NCBI GenBank assembly: GCA_000004695.1
Contig: CM000150.2
Span: forward strand, 1,792,001-1,856,000
Reading direction: 5' to 3'
Source of the DNA: Dictyostelium discoideum
Lineage: Eukaryota
Length of the DNA stretch: 64,000 bases
The notes under the pieces were generated by a model, which saw nothing but the letters and a program-made list of their open reading frames with translations, was not told the DNA's origin and searched no databases. Shown piece after piece: positions 6,760 to 60,544 of the stretch. Both the position numbers and the translations under genes were made by a program. The stretch's first letter is position 1, and each line of letters starts with the position of its first letter.

Positions 6760-7287
6760 ATCAAAATGTTTTTTTTAATTATTCTTTATCTGAATAACAA
6801 CACATTCACATCGGAATATTATGATTTTTTAAAATAATAATATAACGATAAAAATAAGGATTTATTGTTATTGTTTTAATTTTTTTAATTTTACTATAAA
6901 AATCGGATTAATTAATGTTATCAAATATTTTTTTTTTTTTTTTAAATTTTTATTTTTATTTTATAATATTATTTTGATTAAAAATCCTTTTTTAGCAATA
7001 AAAAACAGTTTAATCACCTTTGGTTGTGATCTTATTATCATAAAATGATATAATTATCACTATTTTAACCTTGGATTACTTTTATTATTATTATAATTAT
7101 TTATTAATATTAAAATTTTAATTATTTTTATTTTTTTTTTTCCACATAAATAAGAAATTTTTTTTTTTTTTTAAATCATTCAATATATCTTTTATTTATT
7201 AATTAAATAAAATTTTAATAATTACATATTTTAAGTTTATTTTTCATATTATTTAAATATTTTATTTTGTATATAAAAAAACTACAG

Positions 7288-7318
<31 letters not shown>
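6232..7318. promoter_or_regulatory. Divergent intergenic region shared by the minus-strand gene that starts at 6231 and the plus-strand gene that starts at 7319. It is AT-rich with long homopolymers.
   Basis: Inferred from the gene orientations. No specific site was identified. Confidence 0.3.
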
Positions 7319-7321
<3 letters not shown>

Positions 7322-9673
7322 AAATTTATAACTTTCTTTGTATTTTTCCTTATTATTGTATTTATAGTAAATGGCCAAGGTTCAGTAAGTTCATCGTCAA
7401 ACAATTCTCCCTCATCTTCATTAGATTCTTTGAAACCAGGATCAGAAGGTTCAATAAGTTCATCACAATCTGGATCTGAAAGTTCAAGAGGCTCTTCACA
7501 TTCAGCACCCGAAGTTCCAACTGGTTCTTCACATTCAACCTCTGAAGTTTCAAGTGATTCTTCAAACTCAGCATCTAAAGTTCCAACTAGTTCTTCACAT
7601 TCAGCTTCTGAAGCATCTACTGGCTCGTCACATTCTGAATCAGAAGTTCCAAGTGGTTCAACACATTCATCATCTGAGGTTTCAACTGGTTCATCAAATT
7701 CAGCCTCTGAAGTTTCAATTGGTTCATCACATTCAACATCAGAAGTTTCAACTGGTTCATCACATTCAACATCAGAAGTTCCAAGTGGCTCATCACATTC
7801 AACATCAGAAGTTTCAACTGGTTCATCACATTCAGCCTCTGAAGTTTCAATTGGTTCATCACATTCAACATCTGAAGTTCCAACTGGCTCATCACATTCA
7901 TCATCTGAAGTTCCAACTGGCTCATCACATTCATCATCTGAAGTTCCAACTGGTTCATCACATTCATCATCTGAAGTTCCAACTGGCTCATCACATTCAT
8001 CATCTGAAGTTCCAACTGGTTCATCACATTCAGCCTCTGAAGTTCCAACTGGTTCATCAAATTCAGCCTCTGAAGTTCCAAGTGATTCATCACATTCAGC
8101 CTCTGAAGTTCCAAGTGGCTCTTCACATTCAGCCTCTGAAGTTCCAACTGGTTCATCACATTCAGCCTCTGAAGTTCCAACTGGCTCATCACATTCATCA
8201 TCTGAAGTTCCAAGTGATTCATCAAATTCAGCTTCTGAAGTTCCAACTGGTTCATCACATTCAAATTCTGAAGTTCCAACTGGTTCATCACATTCAGCAT
8301 CTGAAGTTTCAACAGGTTCATCACATTCAGCATCAGAAGTATCAACAAGTTCATCACTTTCAGCTTCCGAAGTTTCAGCTGGTTCGTCACACTCAGCTTC
8401 TGAAGTATCAGCTGGTTCATCAAATTCAGCATCCGAAGTTCCAACTGGTTCGTCACATTCTAAATCCGAAGTTCCAAATGGTTCATCACATTCAGCTTCT
8501 GAAGTTCCAATTGGCTCTTCACATTCAGCATCCGAAGTTTCTACTAGTTCTTCACATTCAGCATCCGAAGTTCCAAATGGTTCATCACATTCAAGATCCG
8601 AAGTTTCAACTAGTTCTTCAAATTCAGGATCTGAAGTTTCTACTAGTTCTTCACATTCAGGATCTGAAGTTTCGACAAGTTCTTCAAATTCAGCTTCTGA
8701 AGTATCAACTGGCTCATCACGTTCAACATCAGAAGTCTCAACTAGTTCTTCAAATTCAGCATCTGAAGTTCTAAGTGGCTCTTCAAATTCAGCATCTGAA
8801 GTTCTAACAGGTTCTTCAAATTCAGCATCTGAAGTTCCAACAGGTTCTTCAAATTCAGCATCTGAAGTTCCAACAGATTCTTCCAATTCAGCATCTGAAG
8901 TTCCAACAGGTTCTTCAAATTCAGCATCTGAAGTTCCAACTGGTTCTTCAAATTCAGTAACTGAAGTTCCAACTGGTTCATCAAATTCAGCATCATCAAA
9001 TTCAGTGTCCGAAGTTCCAACTGGTTCTTCAAATTCAGTAACTGAAGTTTCAACTACCTCATCACATTCAGCATCTGGTTCTTCACATTCAACATCTGAA
9101 GTTTCAACTGGTTCATCACAATCTGGATCAGAAGGCTCAACTGGTTCAAATGGTTCATCACACTCTGGATCAGAAGGTTCAATTGGTTCAGGATCATTAA
9201 ATTCAGGATCAGTGTCACATAATAGTGATAGTGGATCTGAAGATTCAAATGGTTCATCACAATCTGGATCAGAAGTTTCCAATGGTTCATCACAATCTGT
9301 ATCTGAAGGTTCGATTGGTTCAGGATCATTTAATTCAGGATCAGGATCACATAACAGTGATAGTGGATCATCGTTGGATGGTAAAACAACATGTATTTCA
9401 TATCAAGATACTATTTCAATTAAAACTCTTGAAACTGGTGAAATTGAATGTACAGGTAAGGGTGAAACAAGATGTATTTCTGATAATAGCTACAAATGTT
9501 CATCCAAACAAAAACAAGGTTCACTTGAATGCTCTGTAAATGGTTACATAAAATGTACTGGTTCAAATATTAAATGTAGAATTGGTAATACTGTTTGTTC
9601 AATTCAAAACTCACTTTTAGAAATTACTGAAAAACCAATCTTTACAAGAGGTCTTCGTCAATCTCATCATTAA
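7319..9673 (+). CDS. Secreted Ser-rich repeat (mucin-like) protein of 784 aa. It has a signal peptide ([22 protein letters not shown]), about 48 copies of an 11-aa unit ([11 protein letters not shown]) and a C-terminal Cys-rich domain (~14 Cys).
   Basis: The ATG follows a poly(A) tract and the N-terminus has a hydrophobic leader. Codons ggt/tca/cat/gaa/gtt/cca/act are the preferred Dictyostelium set. The three overlapping antisense and alternate-frame ORFs are repeat artefacts. Confidence 0.7.
7470..9060 (+). repeat. A tandem 33-bp coding repeat of about 48 units that encodes the GSSHS[A/S/T]SEV[P/S]T array.
   Basis: Direct inspection shows the unit ggttcatcacattcagcatctgaagttccaact with point variants. 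Confidence 0.85.
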
Positions 9674-59312: not shown

Positions 59313-59816
59313 TTATAGATCACTTTCCTCTTCATAGTGTATTTCAGTATTATGATCATAATCTTCACTGTTACTTTCAAAAGATTCATCAATACCTTTA
59401 ATAAAACACTTTGGAGAATGATTGCACACTCCATTAATTTTAGGAGAATGACAATTATCTCTTTTTGTTAATCTATCTTCACAATATAGATGATTTGGAT
59501 TTAAACATTTTCTATTGTTGCAAAGGAAAGAAATAACATATCCATGACCATGACCATCGGAGTCAATACAACTTGGATCATTTTCACAGGAATTTGCAGC
59601 CTTTGGATAAAGAAAGAGTTTTTTATCTTGATTGGTGTTGTTGTACCAAACGAGGTTGTGACCTTTAACATATTCAAGGAAAACATTACCACAAACTCTA
59701 ACTTCAACATTAACACCATCATTCTTGAAAATTTTCTTTTGATTTAAATTCATTTCATCTCTATTCATTAACCAACAATCTTTCTTAGATTTCTTTTCAA
59801 CAACTTCCATCAACAT
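59313..59816 (-). CDS. Protein of 167 aa carrying a His-Cys-box-like (I-PpoI-type, His-Me finger) nuclease/DNA-binding motif.
   Basis: SFLCNNRKCLNPNHLYCEDRLTKRDNCHSP…GVCNHSPKC aligns with I-PpoI [31 protein letters not shown]…GCVHAVVC, conserving S-x-L-C-x-N-x-x-C-x-N-P-x-H-L…E…N-x-x-R-x-x-C and the Cys/His zinc ligands. The residue at the I-PpoI catalytic His position (LCHN) is Asn here (LCNN). This recognition is from memory and needs an HMM check. Confidence 0.5.
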   Translation of the reverse strand: MLMEVVEKKSKKDCWLMNRDEMNLNQKKIFKNDGVNVEVRVCGNVFLEYVKGHNLVWYNNTNQDKKLFLYPKAANSCENDPSCIDSDGHGHGYVISFLCNNRKCLNPNHLYCEDRLTKRDNCHSPKINGVCNHSPKCFIKGIDESFESNSEDYDHNTEIHYEEESDL

Positions 59817-59869
59817 TTTATAAGTAGTTTTAATTTGATTATCATCTAAATCGAATATATCATTCTTTC

Positions 59870-60544
59870 TTATCTTTGATATTGGCGAGGTGGCGGCAGT
59901 GGTTGTGGTTGTGGTGGTGGCCGTGTTTCCAAAACGTACTTTTTAAGTGGTGATTGATTTGATATTGAAGATGGTAATAATGACGATGATGATGATGCAG
60001 GTGCAGATGGACAGTAAACTCTTTTTCTTAAAGTTGGTAATGGTGAATTTAAGGATGAAGGTGATTGAATATCAGTATTGGAATTACTACTACTATCATC
60101 AGTATTATCTTGGTCAGTGAAAAATTGTGAATTTTCTGAATCTTCTTCACCATCATCTTCATCACTATCAATATTATTTTCAGAAGATTCATCAACATTT
60201 ATTTTATTTAAAGATTTAAATTGTTTTTCTTGATTTTTGGAATTATATTTATCAATTTGTTGATTATTTTGTTGTTTAGATTTACTTGATTTTGACGATG
60301 TAAATTTTAAAGATGATTGGTTTGATGATTGTATTTGTTGTAATTGCTTTTTTGCTTGATTATTAATATTTTTATTATTGATATTATTATTAAAACTGTG
60401 ATGGGTATCATTTTTATCGGAATTAAATGTTACTTCACCAATATTAAAATCAATTTGATTTAAAAAATTAAGTGCTTCCCCAATGCATTGAATTGGAAAA
60501 GCCAATTTTTCTATTTTTTTTCTTTTTTGGTATGTTTCGTCCAT
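59870..60544 (-). CDS. Hypothetical Ser/Asn/Gln-rich protein of 224 aa that ends …RPPPQPQPLPPPRQYQR. It may form one gene with the downstream His-Cys-box ORF.
   Basis: An ORF with an ATG. Its stop lies only ~50 bp upstream of the next ORF's ATG, and that ORF's frame stays open upstream across this stop. Confidence 0.4.
   Translation of the reverse strand: MDETYQKRKKIEKLAFPIQCIGEALNFLNQIDFNIGEVTFNSDKNDTHHSFNNNINNKNINNQAKKQLQQIQSSNQSSLKFTSSKSSKSKQQNNQQIDKYNSKNQEKQFKSLNKINVDESSENNIDSDEDDGEEDSENSQFFTDQDNTDDSSSNSNTDIQSPSSLNSPLPTLRKRVYCPSAPASSSSSLLPSSISNQSPLKKYVLETRPPPQPQPLPPPRQYQR

What the first reader, a model, noticed from the sequence alone, without database searches (positions are those of the whole stretch)
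59313..60544. Free-standing nuclear ORF with a His-Cys-box (I-PpoI-like) homing-endonuclease motif, next to a frame-shifted upstream ORF
The 167-aa ORF contains SFLCNNRKCLNPNHLYCEDRLTKRDNCHSP…GVCNHSPKC. This matches, in spacing and ligand residues, the His-Cys box of group-I-intron homing endonucleases such as I-PpoI ([31 protein letters not shown]…GCVHAVVC). Those enzymes are normally encoded inside rDNA introns of myxomycetes and amoeboflagellates, not as ordinary spliced-gene-free nuclear ORFs with Dictyostelium codon usage. The presumptive catalytic His (LCHN) is Asn here (LCNN), which suggests a domesticated and possibly catalytically inactive DNA-binding derivative. The 224-aa ORF immediately upstream ends 50 bp before this ORF's ATG. 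The His-Cys ORF frame remains open upstream across that stop, so the two may form one gene separated by a 1-nt frameshift, either an assembly error or a pseudogenising mutation.
Basis: partly seen in the sequence, partly recalled or inferred. Interest (0 to 1): 0.65.

Follow-up and report, generated by a model that had tools for sequence, protein, structure and literature searches.

The report
Domesticated dead homing-endonuclease domain gene
A Dictyostelium nuclear gene ends in a zinc-binding domain descended from the DNA-cutting "homing endonucleases" of ribosomal-DNA introns. The domain has lost the residues needed to cut DNA but is preserved by selection in three sister species, and in this reference-type strain the gene is broken by a one-base deletion.

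Summary
On the minus strand, a 167-aa ORF (59313-59816, DDB_G0268654) carries a real His-Cys-box (I-PpoI-type His-Me finger) signature. A 224-aa ORF (59870-60544) sits upstream in another frame.

The two ORFs are one gene. A second D. discoideum allele, D. cf. discoideum and D. firmibasis each have a single intronless 389-425-aa ORF at the same syntenic position, downstream of the transhydrogenase gene. All of them have A6 where the window has A5 (59940-59944). The window therefore carries a derived 1-nt deletion. An independent assembly shares it, and its annotators bridged it with a 52 %-GC "intron".

The domain keeps all eight zinc ligands of I-PpoI, plus the Ser97, His110 and Glu114 equivalents. 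The general-base His98 is Phe (SFLC), and the metal-binding Asn119 lies in a 2-residue deletion. Both changes are shared by all three species.

The domain's dN/dS is 0.08-0.18, against 0.44 in the N-terminal region and about 1 in the C-tail. The closest collinear relative is an ORF in a group-I-intron-bearing LSU rDNA fragment.

Best reading: a domesticated, catalytically dead homing-endonuclease domain, probably DNA-binding, analogous to SMAD MH1. I rate it a new variant of a known kind, of moderate interest.

The parts
59313..60544 (-). Whole gene as it stands in the window. It is the frameshifted allele of a single-exon gene of about 410 aa. Inserting one A restores a 410-aa ORF.
   Evidence: Intact orthologues and alleles: P0003 412 aa, P0021 425 aa, P0022 389 aa.
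59870..60544 (-). Upstream ORF (224 aa). It encodes the N-terminal, low-complexity, Asn/Ser/Gln-rich and acidic region, with conserved basic motifs (QKRKKIEK, RKRV, KKVRF). Its last 19 codons are out of frame.
   Evidence: Pfam gives only sub-threshold low-complexity hits. dN/dS is about 0.44.
59940..59944 (-). A5 homopolymer, the site of the derived 1-nt deletion. It is A6 in the other D. discoideum allele, in D. cf. discoideum and in D. firmibasis.
59869..59939 (-). 71-nt GT..AG stretch annotated as an intron in KAM9941630.1 to bridge the frameshift. It is 52 % G+C and is coding sequence ([24 protein letters not shown]) in intact alleles, so it is most likely not a real intron.
59394..59879 (-). 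Conserved C-terminal domain (SKIRKNDIF...KCFIKG, about 162 aa). This is the I-PpoI-sized His-Cys-box-derived domain. It begins 21 codons upstream of the annotated ATG at 59816.
   Evidence: dN/dS is 0.076-0.18.
59313..59816 (-). Downstream ORF as annotated in AX4 (DDB_G0268654, 167 aa).
59406..59531 (-). His-Cys box core (S96-C137 of the 167-aa ORF). Zinc ligands are C99, C104, H109 and C122, C131, H133, C137. The Ser97, His110 and Glu114 equivalents are also kept.
59526..59528 (-). TTC codon for Phe97, at the position of I-PpoI's general base His98.
   Evidence: The Phe is conserved in all three Dictyostelium orthologues.
59463..59468 (-). Codons for Thr117-Lys118, which flank the 2-residue deletion that removes the equivalent of the metal-binding Asn119.
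59775..59777 (-). Codon for Cys14 (DCW). It aligns with I-PpoI Cys41, the fourth ligand of zinc site 1.
   Evidence: This is a sequence alignment only, in a weakly alignable region.

Best explanation
The locus is one single-exon nuclear gene of about 410 codons. Its C-terminal ~160 residues descend from a His-Cys-box homing endonuclease of the kind encoded in group I introns of nuclear rDNA (the I-PpoI family).

Shown:
- The domain keeps the two structural zinc sites and the other family-conserved scaffold residues.
- The general-base histidine is replaced by phenylalanine, and the metal-binding asparagine is deleted.
- These changes, the fusion to a low-complexity N-terminal region with basic and acidic stretches, and the chromosomal position downstream of the transhydrogenase gene are shared by D. 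discoideum, D. cf. discoideum and D. firmibasis.
- The domain is under strong purifying selection.
- In the window's allele a derived 1-nt deletion in an A-run just upstream of the domain splits the gene into the 224-aa and 167-aa ORFs.

Inferred:
- The protein no longer cuts DNA.
- It is kept for a host function that uses the endonuclease's folded, zinc-stabilised surface. The most likely function is sequence-specific DNA binding, by analogy with the SMAD MH1 domain. In that case the N-terminal region would supply nuclear targeting and effector functions.
- In this strain lineage the gene is probably a recent null or hypomorph.
For: Family membership of the domain:
- Pfam PF05551, E 4.5e-6.
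- A family profile hits only I-PpoI in the PDB, E 1.4e-11.
- hhalign gives 97.3 %.
- An HMM of non-Dictyostelium members scores 48.9 bits.

Origin: the best collinear relative is P0010 (170 aa, residues 64-149 matching 64-149, 35 % identity). It is encoded in a eukaryotic LSU rDNA fragment that also holds a group I intron and a second His-Cys-box ORF.

Residues:
- All eight zinc-ligand equivalents are conserved (seven invariant in every alignment; the Cys41 equivalent from a weakly alignable region), as are the S97, H110 and E114 equivalents.
- His98 is Phe, and Asn119 falls in a 2-aa deletion.
- The roles of these residues come from PMC3384342, PMC2699513 and PMC9587614. The I-PpoI numbering was verified.

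One gene:
- The 412-aa uninterrupted ORF appears in nine Logan run assemblies; the six read and aligned carry A6.
- Syntenic single-ORF orthologues of 425 and 389 aa exist.
- The run is A6 in these and A5 in the window.

Selection:
- Domain dN/dS is 0.076, 0.150 and 0.182, with binomial P of 7e-7 to 2e-11 against neutrality.
- The N-terminal region is at 0.44 and the C-terminal tail at about 1.

Not mobile now:
- The gene is syntenic in three species.
- No rRNA or group I intron signal was found in the window.
- Only low-complexity repeats flank it.
- Codon usage is host-like, GC3 0.12-0.20.

Precedent: His-Me fingers that lack both His and Tyr are considered non-nucleases, and MH1 retains DNA binding (PMC5714182).
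Against: - No experiment or structure was available. Both AlphaFold2 runs were poor (pLDDT 40 and 43). The I-PpoI-like fold of the N-terminal half, which forms the DNA-binding sheet in I-PpoI, is therefore not shown. Sequence similarity is significant only over the ~55-residue box.
- DNA binding is inferred by analogy only. The constrained function could instead be protein binding or RNA binding.
- The Pfam score is borderline. It is 27.3 against 27 for the 167-aa ORF, and 20-24.5 for the full-length orthologues.
- The gene is broken in the reference-type strain, so it is dispensable at least in the laboratory.
- No orthologue was detected outside the D. discoideum/D. firmibasis group, so any function is young and lineage-specific.
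- Expression was not shown. It is unknown whether the Logan contigs come from RNA or DNA.
Confidence: 0.68

Rival explanations
1. The gene is a decaying relic. A homing-endonuclease gene escaped from an rDNA intron into the chromosome and is in the degeneration phase of the usual life cycle of invasion, inactivation and loss. It has no host function.
For: - The catalytic residues are lost.
- The window's lineage carries a frameshift.
- The gene is restricted to a few closely related species and is single-copy.
- Lipomyces paralogues of the same Pfam family also show assorted substitutions at the His98 position: Y, R and Q.
Against: - The domain's dN/dS is 0.08-0.18 across three species at dS up to 0.73, far from neutrality.
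- All eight zinc ligands and the S, H and E scaffold residues are invariant.
- The ORF is intact in three of the four lineages sampled and has been syntenic since their divergence.
- The frameshifted allele has no further changes in the domain, so the lesion is recent.
Confidence: 0.12
2. The protein is still an endonuclease or nickase that uses a non-canonical active site. It may act as a free-standing homing or selfish nuclease.
For: [quoted passage not shown]
- R.PacI shows that the general base can be replaced, by Tyr (PMC3384342, PMC5714182).
Against: - Phe cannot act as a base or nucleophile.
- The metal-binding Asn is deleted as well.
- The gene is single-copy, fixed and syntenic, with no sign of mobility.
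Confidence: 0.05
3. Gene-structure rival: in the window's strain the two ORFs are joined by a genuine 71-nt intron (59869-59939), as annotated in KAM9941630.1. A 386-aa protein carrying the domain would then still be made.
For: - A GT..AG pair in the right phases exists, and the resulting 386-aa product is an annotated NCBI protein.
- The donor GTACGT is close to the usual GTAAGT (my own knowledge).
Against: - The stretch is 52 % G+C, against 9-12 % in the flanking non-coding DNA.
- It is in-frame coding sequence in the intact alleles and orthologues, all of which are single ORFs.
- Splicing would delete the conserved KKVRF...SKIR residues.
- In the other D. discoideum allele the 'donor' reads GTCCGT.
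Confidence: 0.1
4. The Cys/His pattern belongs to an unrelated zinc finger, for example a RING/IBR-like domain, and is not a His-Me finger.
For: Single-sequence phmmer against the PDB placed parkin RING1/IBR chains (E 0.02-0.1) slightly above I-PpoI (E 0.09-0.13).
Against: - All those hits are non-significant.
- With a family profile, parkin disappears and only I-PpoI remains, at E 1e-11.
- The only Pfam hits are PF05551 and the related HNH_3.
- All hits among 1.84 billion representatives are His-Me or HNH_3 proteins.
Confidence: 0.02

Closest known systems
I-PpoI and other His-Cys-box homing endonucleases of nuclear rDNA group I introns (His-Me finger group 12; Pfam PF05551)
   Same: - The size of the conserved domain is similar, about 160 aa against 163 aa.
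- The S-x-L-C-x4-C-x-N-P-x-H-L...E...R-x-x-C...C-x-H-x3-C box is present with all eight zinc ligands.
- The nearest collinear relative, P0010, sits in intron-bearing LSU rDNA.
- I-PpoI comes from Physarum, which like Dictyostelium is an amoebozoan (my own knowledge).
   Different: - His98 is Phe and Asn119 is deleted.
- The gene is not in rDNA or in an intron.
- The domain is fused to a ~225-aa N-terminal host-like region.
- The gene is syntenic, single-copy and under purifying selection as an ordinary chromosomal gene.
SMAD MH1 domain, 'a degraded homing endonuclease' (Grishin 2001, cited in PMC3384342 and PMC5714182)
   Same: Both are His-Me finger domains of I-PpoI type that lost the catalytic His, kept a structural zinc, and serve a host protein. 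For MH1 that service is DNA binding. This is the functional analogy I propose.
   Different: - There is no detectable sequence relationship to MH1. No PF03165 hit appeared at E<=10.
- The Dictyostelium domain is still recognisably a His-Cys box with both zinc sites.
- It is young, being confined to a few Dictyostelium species.
- DNA binding is untested.
Fungal free-standing 'zinc-binding loop region of homing endonuclease' proteins (Lipomyces starkeyi/tetrasporus paralogues P0008, P0011, P0014-P0019)
   Same: - They are chromosomal, non-rDNA genes with PF05551 domains.
- Some copies also have substitutions at the His98 position.
   Different: - They form a multi-copy family, often with two domains per protein.
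- Most copies keep His98 and all keep the Asn119-equivalent region.
- There is no evidence here of orthology, or of purifying selection on dead copies.
I-PpoI-like nuclease of KolobokP DNA transposons in animals (PMC9587614)
   Same: It is another example of a His-Cys-box endonuclease captured outside rDNA introns in a nuclear genome.
   Different: - KolobokP nucleases keep H98, H110 and N119.
- They lie next to a DDD/E transposase inside repeats.
- Here there is no transposase and there are no terminal repeats, and the gene is syntenic.

Membership tests
His-Cys-box homing endonucleases (I-PpoI group, Pfam PF05551) | Significant profile match to the family | tested here: met
   - PF05551 scores 27.3 bits against a gathering score of 27, E 4.5e-6, for the 167-aa ORF. 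This is borderline: the full-length orthologues score 20-24.5 bits.
- Independent support comes from the family profile against the PDB, where only I-PpoI is hit, E 1.4e-11.
- hhalign gives 97.3 %.
- An HMM of non-Dictyostelium members scores 48.9 bits.
His-Cys-box homing endonucleases (I-PpoI group, Pfam PF05551) | Eight conserved Cys/His residues forming two zinc sites (I-PpoI C41, C100, C105, H110; C125, C132, H134, C138) | tested here: met
   - The equivalents are C14, C99, C104, H109 and C122, C131, H133, C137 of the 167-aa ORF.
- They are invariant in the three Dictyostelium orthologues.
- The C14/C41 equivalence rests on a weakly alignable region.
His-Cys-box homing endonucleases (I-PpoI group, Pfam PF05551) | General-base histidine (I-PpoI His98) | tested here: not met
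   Phe97 (SFLC) occupies this position in the window and in both orthologues.
His-Cys-box homing endonucleases (I-PpoI group, Pfam PF05551) | Metal-binding asparagine at the start of the helix (I-PpoI Asn119) | tested here: not met
   A 2-residue deletion (T--KR) removes this position. MAFFT, hhalign and HMMER alignments all place it there. All eight non-Dictyostelium members aligned keep the Asn.
His-Cys-box homing endonucleases (I-PpoI group, Pfam PF05551) | [quoted passage not shown] | tested here: not met
   - No rRNA or Intron_gpI match was found in the window at the gathering threshold, or at E<=1 around the gene.
- The gene lies between protein-coding genes and is syntenic in three species.
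His-Cys-box homing endonucleases (I-PpoI group, Pfam PF05551) | I-PpoI fold, including the N-terminal DNA-binding beta-sheet and the homodimer | tested here: inconclusive
   The two AlphaFold2 models had pLDDT 40 and 43. Foldseek ranked I-PpoI first but without significance, E 0.84.
His-Cys-box homing endonucleases (I-PpoI group, Pfam PF05551) | Site-specific double-strand cleavage and homing | not testable with these tools
   This needs biochemistry.
Degraded, non-catalytic His-Me finger domains in host proteins (SMAD MH1 type) | Catalytic His absent without a Tyr substitute, fold-stabilising zinc ligands kept | tested here: met
   The criterion is taken from PMC5714182.
Degraded, non-catalytic His-Me finger domains in host proteins (SMAD MH1 type) | Maintained by purifying selection as part of a host gene | tested here: met
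   Domain dN/dS is 0.076-0.18, and the orthologues are syntenic single ORFs.
Degraded, non-catalytic His-Me finger domains in host proteins (SMAD MH1 type) | Sequence membership in the MH1 family (PF03165) | tested here: not met
   No PF03165 hit appeared at E<=10. The relation to MH1 is an analogy of mechanism, not membership.
Degraded, non-catalytic His-Me finger domains in host proteins (SMAD MH1 type) | Sequence-specific DNA binding | not testable with these tools
   This needs EMSA, SELEX or ChIP.
HNH_3 / I-HmuI-type phage homing endonucleases (PF13392) | Profile match above the gathering score | tested here: not met
   The score is 14.6 bits against a gathering score of 24.8. Multi-repeat HNH_3 proteins appear only as distant hits.
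KolobokP-type transposon-borne His-Me nuclease | Adjacent DDD/E transposase and terminal repeats | tested here: not met
   The neighbours are the transhydrogenase gene and an Asn-rich host gene. Only A/T low-complexity repeats flank the gene.

The most novel reading that the evidence does not exclude
A within-genus, evolutionarily recent repeat of the event that produced SMAD MH1. A His-Cys-box homing endonuclease from an amoebozoan rDNA intron lost catalysis, was fused to a regulatory N-terminal region, and became a sequence-specific DNA-binding factor of Dictyostelium. It may still recognise a conserved rDNA homing site. There it could regulate the extrachromosomal rDNA, or occlude the site against invasion by active intron endonucleases. 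A natural null allele in the laboratory strain lineage would then be available for comparison.
Probability: 0.3. Interest if true: 0.7.

Novelty: new variant of a known kind. Interest (0 to 1): 0.5.

Why it matters
Domestication of homing endonucleases into host DNA-binding proteins is known from ancient, heavily diverged cases such as SMAD MH1 and WhiA, where the intermediate steps are no longer visible.

Here the derived domain is still recognisable as a His-Cys box. It has lost exactly the two catalytic positions and is under measurable purifying selection. It exists in only a few closely related species of a tractable model organism. A natural frameshift allele sits in the standard laboratory lineage, and intact alleles are found in other isolates.

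This makes the early stage of domestication experimentally accessible. One can ask what the domain binds, whether it still recognises an rDNA site, and what is lost in AX-type strains.

There is also a practical point. The AX4 model DDB_G0268654 (167 aa) is a 5'-truncated fragment, and the 386-aa model KAM9941630.1 contains a spurious intron.

Tried and rejected
- The first word-indexed homologue search with the 187-aa domain found nothing, not even the protein itself. This was an index limitation. The later search with the 412-aa allele found the orthologues.
- Single-sequence phmmer against the PDB gave only non-significant hits, with parkin and I-PpoI at similar E-values. A profile resolved this.
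- Two AlphaFold2 runs with alignments of 6 and 12 sequences gave pLDDT 40 and 43. The Foldseek result was not significant. I therefore make no structural claim beyond sequence alignment.
- The viral-contig scan found no relatives. The metagenome scan gave only three near-identical loci. The first, broader alignment was too divergent to scan with.
- Rfam found no rRNA or group I intron remnant around the gene.
- The repeat search around the gene returned only A/T low-complexity matches.
- Literature searches for the gene identifier and for Dictyostelium plus 'His-Cys box' found nothing relevant.
- I considered programmed -1 frameshifting at CTT-AAA-AAG. The shift would have the right sign, but the ancestral state is simply A6, the heptamer is non-canonical, and no evidence supports it.
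- I considered the RING/IBR reading and rejected it (see the rival explanations).
Full report
**1. What is in the sequence**

The window is AT-rich (23.7 % G+C) and is Dictyostelium discoideum DNA. The 167-aa ORF equals DDB_G0268654 / Q55F32 of strain AX4.

- a 224-aa ORF at 59870-60544;
- a 167-aa ORF at 59313-59816.

They are separated by 53 nt. The downstream frame remains open for 43 codons upstream of its ATG and overlaps the end of the upstream ORF. The quoted Cys/His-rich peptide is present.

**2. The motif is a genuine His-Cys box**

- The 167-aa ORF matches Pfam PF05551 ('zinc-binding loop region of homing endonuclease') at E 4.5e-6. The score just clears the curated threshold, 27.3 against 27 bits.
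- A search of 1.84 billion representative proteins returned only eight distant relatives, all His-Me or HNH_3-type proteins.
- A profile built from the window protein and five of these domains, without I-PpoI, hits only I-PpoI in the whole PDB, E 1.4e-11. hhalign gives 97.3 % probability.
- An HMM built only from the eight non-Dictyostelium sequences of alignment A5 (I-PpoI included) scores the window sequence at 48.9 bits.
- The weak parkin RING/IBR hits seen with the single sequence disappear at profile level, so that rival is rejected.

**3. Origin**

The best collinear relative is P0010. It is 170 aa against 167 aa here, residues 64-149 align with 64-149, and identity over the aligned stretch is 35 %.

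P0010 lies on a 3.1-kb metagenome contig, L008. That contig is a fragment of eukaryotic LSU rDNA (712 bits). It also carries a group I intron (48 bits, E 2e-10) and a second His-Cys-box ORF.

The Dictyostelium domain is therefore most similar to bona fide rDNA-intron homing endonucleases. In the window itself there is no rRNA or group I intron signal.

**4. One gene, and a frameshift in this allele**

Exact-sequence look-ups gave three results:
- AX4 annotates only the 167-aa ORF.
- Another D. discoideum assembly (GCA_054883475.1) annotates a 386-aa protein. It is made by splicing out 59869-59939.
- Nine Logan run assemblies contain an uninterrupted 412-aa ORF.

Alignment of six of these Logan contigs shows that allele differs from the window by six substitutions, a 6-nt indel and one extra A at the A-run 59940-59944.

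A search with the 412-aa protein then found two orthologues:
- D. cf. discoideum, 425 aa, 78 % identity;
- D. firmibasis, 389 aa, 52 % identity.

Both are single uninterrupted ORFs lying immediately downstream of the NAD(P) transhydrogenase gene, as in the window.

At the critical site all of these have A6. The window and GCA_054883475.1 have A5. The window allele therefore carries a derived 1-nt deletion.

GCA_054883475.1 differs from the window by one mismatch and a few homopolymer indels over 7.2 kb, yet it shares the deletion. An assembly error is therefore unlikely.

The annotated 'intron' is 52 % G+C, against 9-12 % in the flanking non-coding DNA. In the intact alleles it encodes in-frame residues, including the conserved motifs KKVRF and SKIR. 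It is best read as an annotation device that bridges the frameshift.

The conserved domain starts 21 codons upstream of the AX4-annotated ATG. The 167-aa model is therefore truncated.

**5. Catalytic residues**

The I-PpoI sequence I used is identical to PDB 1A73 over all 163 residues, so residue numbers can be read directly.

Published roles of the I-PpoI residues:
- His98, the H of S-H-L-C, is the general base, and Asn119 binds the metal (PMC3384342, PMC2699513).
- Ser97, His110, Glu114 and eight Cys/His residues are conserved in the group (PMC9587614).

What the window protein and both orthologues show:
- Seven of the eight zinc ligands are invariant in every alignment, and so are the S97, H110 and E114 equivalents. 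The eighth ligand, the Cys41 equivalent (DCW), aligns but lies in a weakly alignable region and is replaced in a few members.
- His98 is Phe (SFLC).
- Asn119 falls in a 2-residue deletion. MAFFT, hhalign and HMMER all place the deletion there.
- All eight non-Dictyostelium members in the alignment keep the Asn.

That is incorrect. The conclusion that the protein is probably inactive is nevertheless strengthened.

In the systematic survey of the superfamily, the only groups lacking both His and a Tyr substitute are considered non-nucleases. These are SMAD MH1 and the ENPP nuclease-like domain (PMC5714182).

**6. Selection**

Nei-Gojobori estimates on codon alignments:

| Region | D. discoideum vs D. 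cf. discoideum | D. discoideum vs D. firmibasis | D. cf. discoideum vs D. firmibasis |
|---|---|---|---|
| Domain (161 codons) | 0.076 | 0.150 | 0.182 |
| N-terminal region | 0.44 | 0.45 | 0.44 |
| C-terminal tail (26 codons) | 0.60 | 1.03 | 1.33 |

- For the domain, dS reaches 0.73.
- The deficit of nonsynonymous changes in the domain is highly significant, with binomial P of 7e-7 to 2e-11.
- Between the two D. discoideum alleles the domain has no differences. The frameshift is therefore recent.

A catalytically disabled endonuclease domain is thus being actively conserved.

**7. Mechanism proposed**

Shown:
- The domain descends from a His-Cys-box endonuclease.
- Both catalytic residues are lost.
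- The zinc scaffold is kept.
- The domain is fused to an N-terminal low-complexity region that holds conserved basic motifs and acidic tracts.
- The gene is syntenic in three species.
- The domain is under purifying selection.
- The window allele is frameshifted.

Inferred:
- The protein does not cleave DNA.
- It is retained for a binding function. The most plausible function is sequence-specific DNA binding through the endonuclease's recognition surface, as in SMAD MH1.
- The N-terminal region would provide nuclear import and effector functions.
- The reference-type strain carries a null or hypomorphic allele.

I could not test the fold of the N-terminal half of the domain, because the AlphaFold2 models had pLDDT 40 and 43 and Foldseek was not significant. 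I also could not test expression or binding.

**8. Comparison with what is known**

- Free-standing PF05551 proteins exist in Lipomyces yeasts, in several paralogues, some with substitutions at the His98 position.
- One lies on non-rDNA groundwater metagenome contigs.
- I-PpoI-like nucleases have been captured by KolobokP transposons in animals (PMC9587614).

An I-PpoI-like ORF outside rDNA is therefore not unprecedented in itself.

What I did not find described is a His-Cys-box domain that has lost both catalytic residues yet is conserved as an ordinary host gene. Searches for the gene identifier and for Dictyostelium plus 'His-Cys box' returned nothing relevant. Public databases do already tag the D. 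firmibasis orthologue automatically with the Pfam domain name.

I therefore class it as a new variant of a known kind: a homing-endonuclease domestication analogous to MH1. It is not a member of the active His-Cys-box endonucleases, because two defining features were tested and not met. It is not a member of the MH1 family either.

**9. Verdict**

- Interest is moderate, 0.5. The finding is a clean, young and experimentally tractable example of endonuclease domestication. It also yields a correction to two public gene models. The mechanism rests on analogy, and the phenomenon has precedents.

Noticed in passing
L008 1-3123 (JGI metagenome 3300064013, contig Ga0598427_010866): This fragment of eukaryotic LSU rDNA carries two different His-Cys-box ORFs, 192 aa at 1016-1594 and 170 aa at 2010-2522. 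An Intron_gpI match lies between them at 1623-1925 (48 bits, just under the gathering score of 50). It looks like two neighbouring intron or endonuclease insertions in one rDNA. The organism is unknown.
   Followed up: partly
L009, L010, L011 (Hainich groundwater metagenomes; L011 1108-1782): A 224-aa ORF has a canonical His-Cys box (ASHLCGHSRCFNPLHL...NASRNEC...CNHSPKC; PF05551, 49 bits). The contigs show no rRNA or group I intron signal, so this is another free-standing member of unknown origin.
   Followed up: partly
window 59869-59939 (-) / L007 3001-4232: Two public gene models for this locus look wrong. KAM9941630.1 (386 aa) contains a 71-nt, 52 %-GC 'intron' that merely bridges the frameshift. 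DDB_G0268654 (167 aa) starts 21 codons inside the conserved domain.
   Followed up: yes
window 59937-60355 (-): Between the two D. discoideum alleles every difference lies in the N-terminal region. These are three nonsynonymous changes (A64T, I115T, N124K), three further substitutions, and a 6-nt Ser-Ser indel near 59990. There are none in the 500-bp domain.
   Followed up: partly
window 59938-59949 (-): The deletion leaves CTT-AAA-AAG-TAC. A -1 slip of tRNA-Lys on AAA-AAG would restore the downstream frame. This is a theoretical route to low-level full-length protein. The heptamer is non-canonical and nothing supports actual frameshifting.
   Followed up: no
P0008, P0011, P0014-P0019 (Lipomyces starkeyi / L. 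tetrasporus): This is a multi-copy family of chromosomal PF05551 proteins, often with two domains per protein. The catalytic-His position varies between copies (SHLC, SYLC, SRLG, SQLC). That suggests repeated decay or repurposing of His-Cys-box domains in these yeasts.
   Followed up: no
window 7319-9673 (+) and 7282-9282 (-): A 784-aa ORF has a signal-peptide-like start and dozens of ~12-aa Ser-rich repeats ([11 protein letters not shown]). The periodic repeat keeps a 666-aa ORF open on the opposite strand. It is probably a secreted repeat protein, and the antisense ORF is probably an artefact of the repeat.
   Followed up: no
(database behaviour): The word-indexed protein search with the 187-aa domain did not return even the identical database protein. 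The 412-aa query did. A negative result from that tool is therefore weak evidence of absence.
   Followed up: partly
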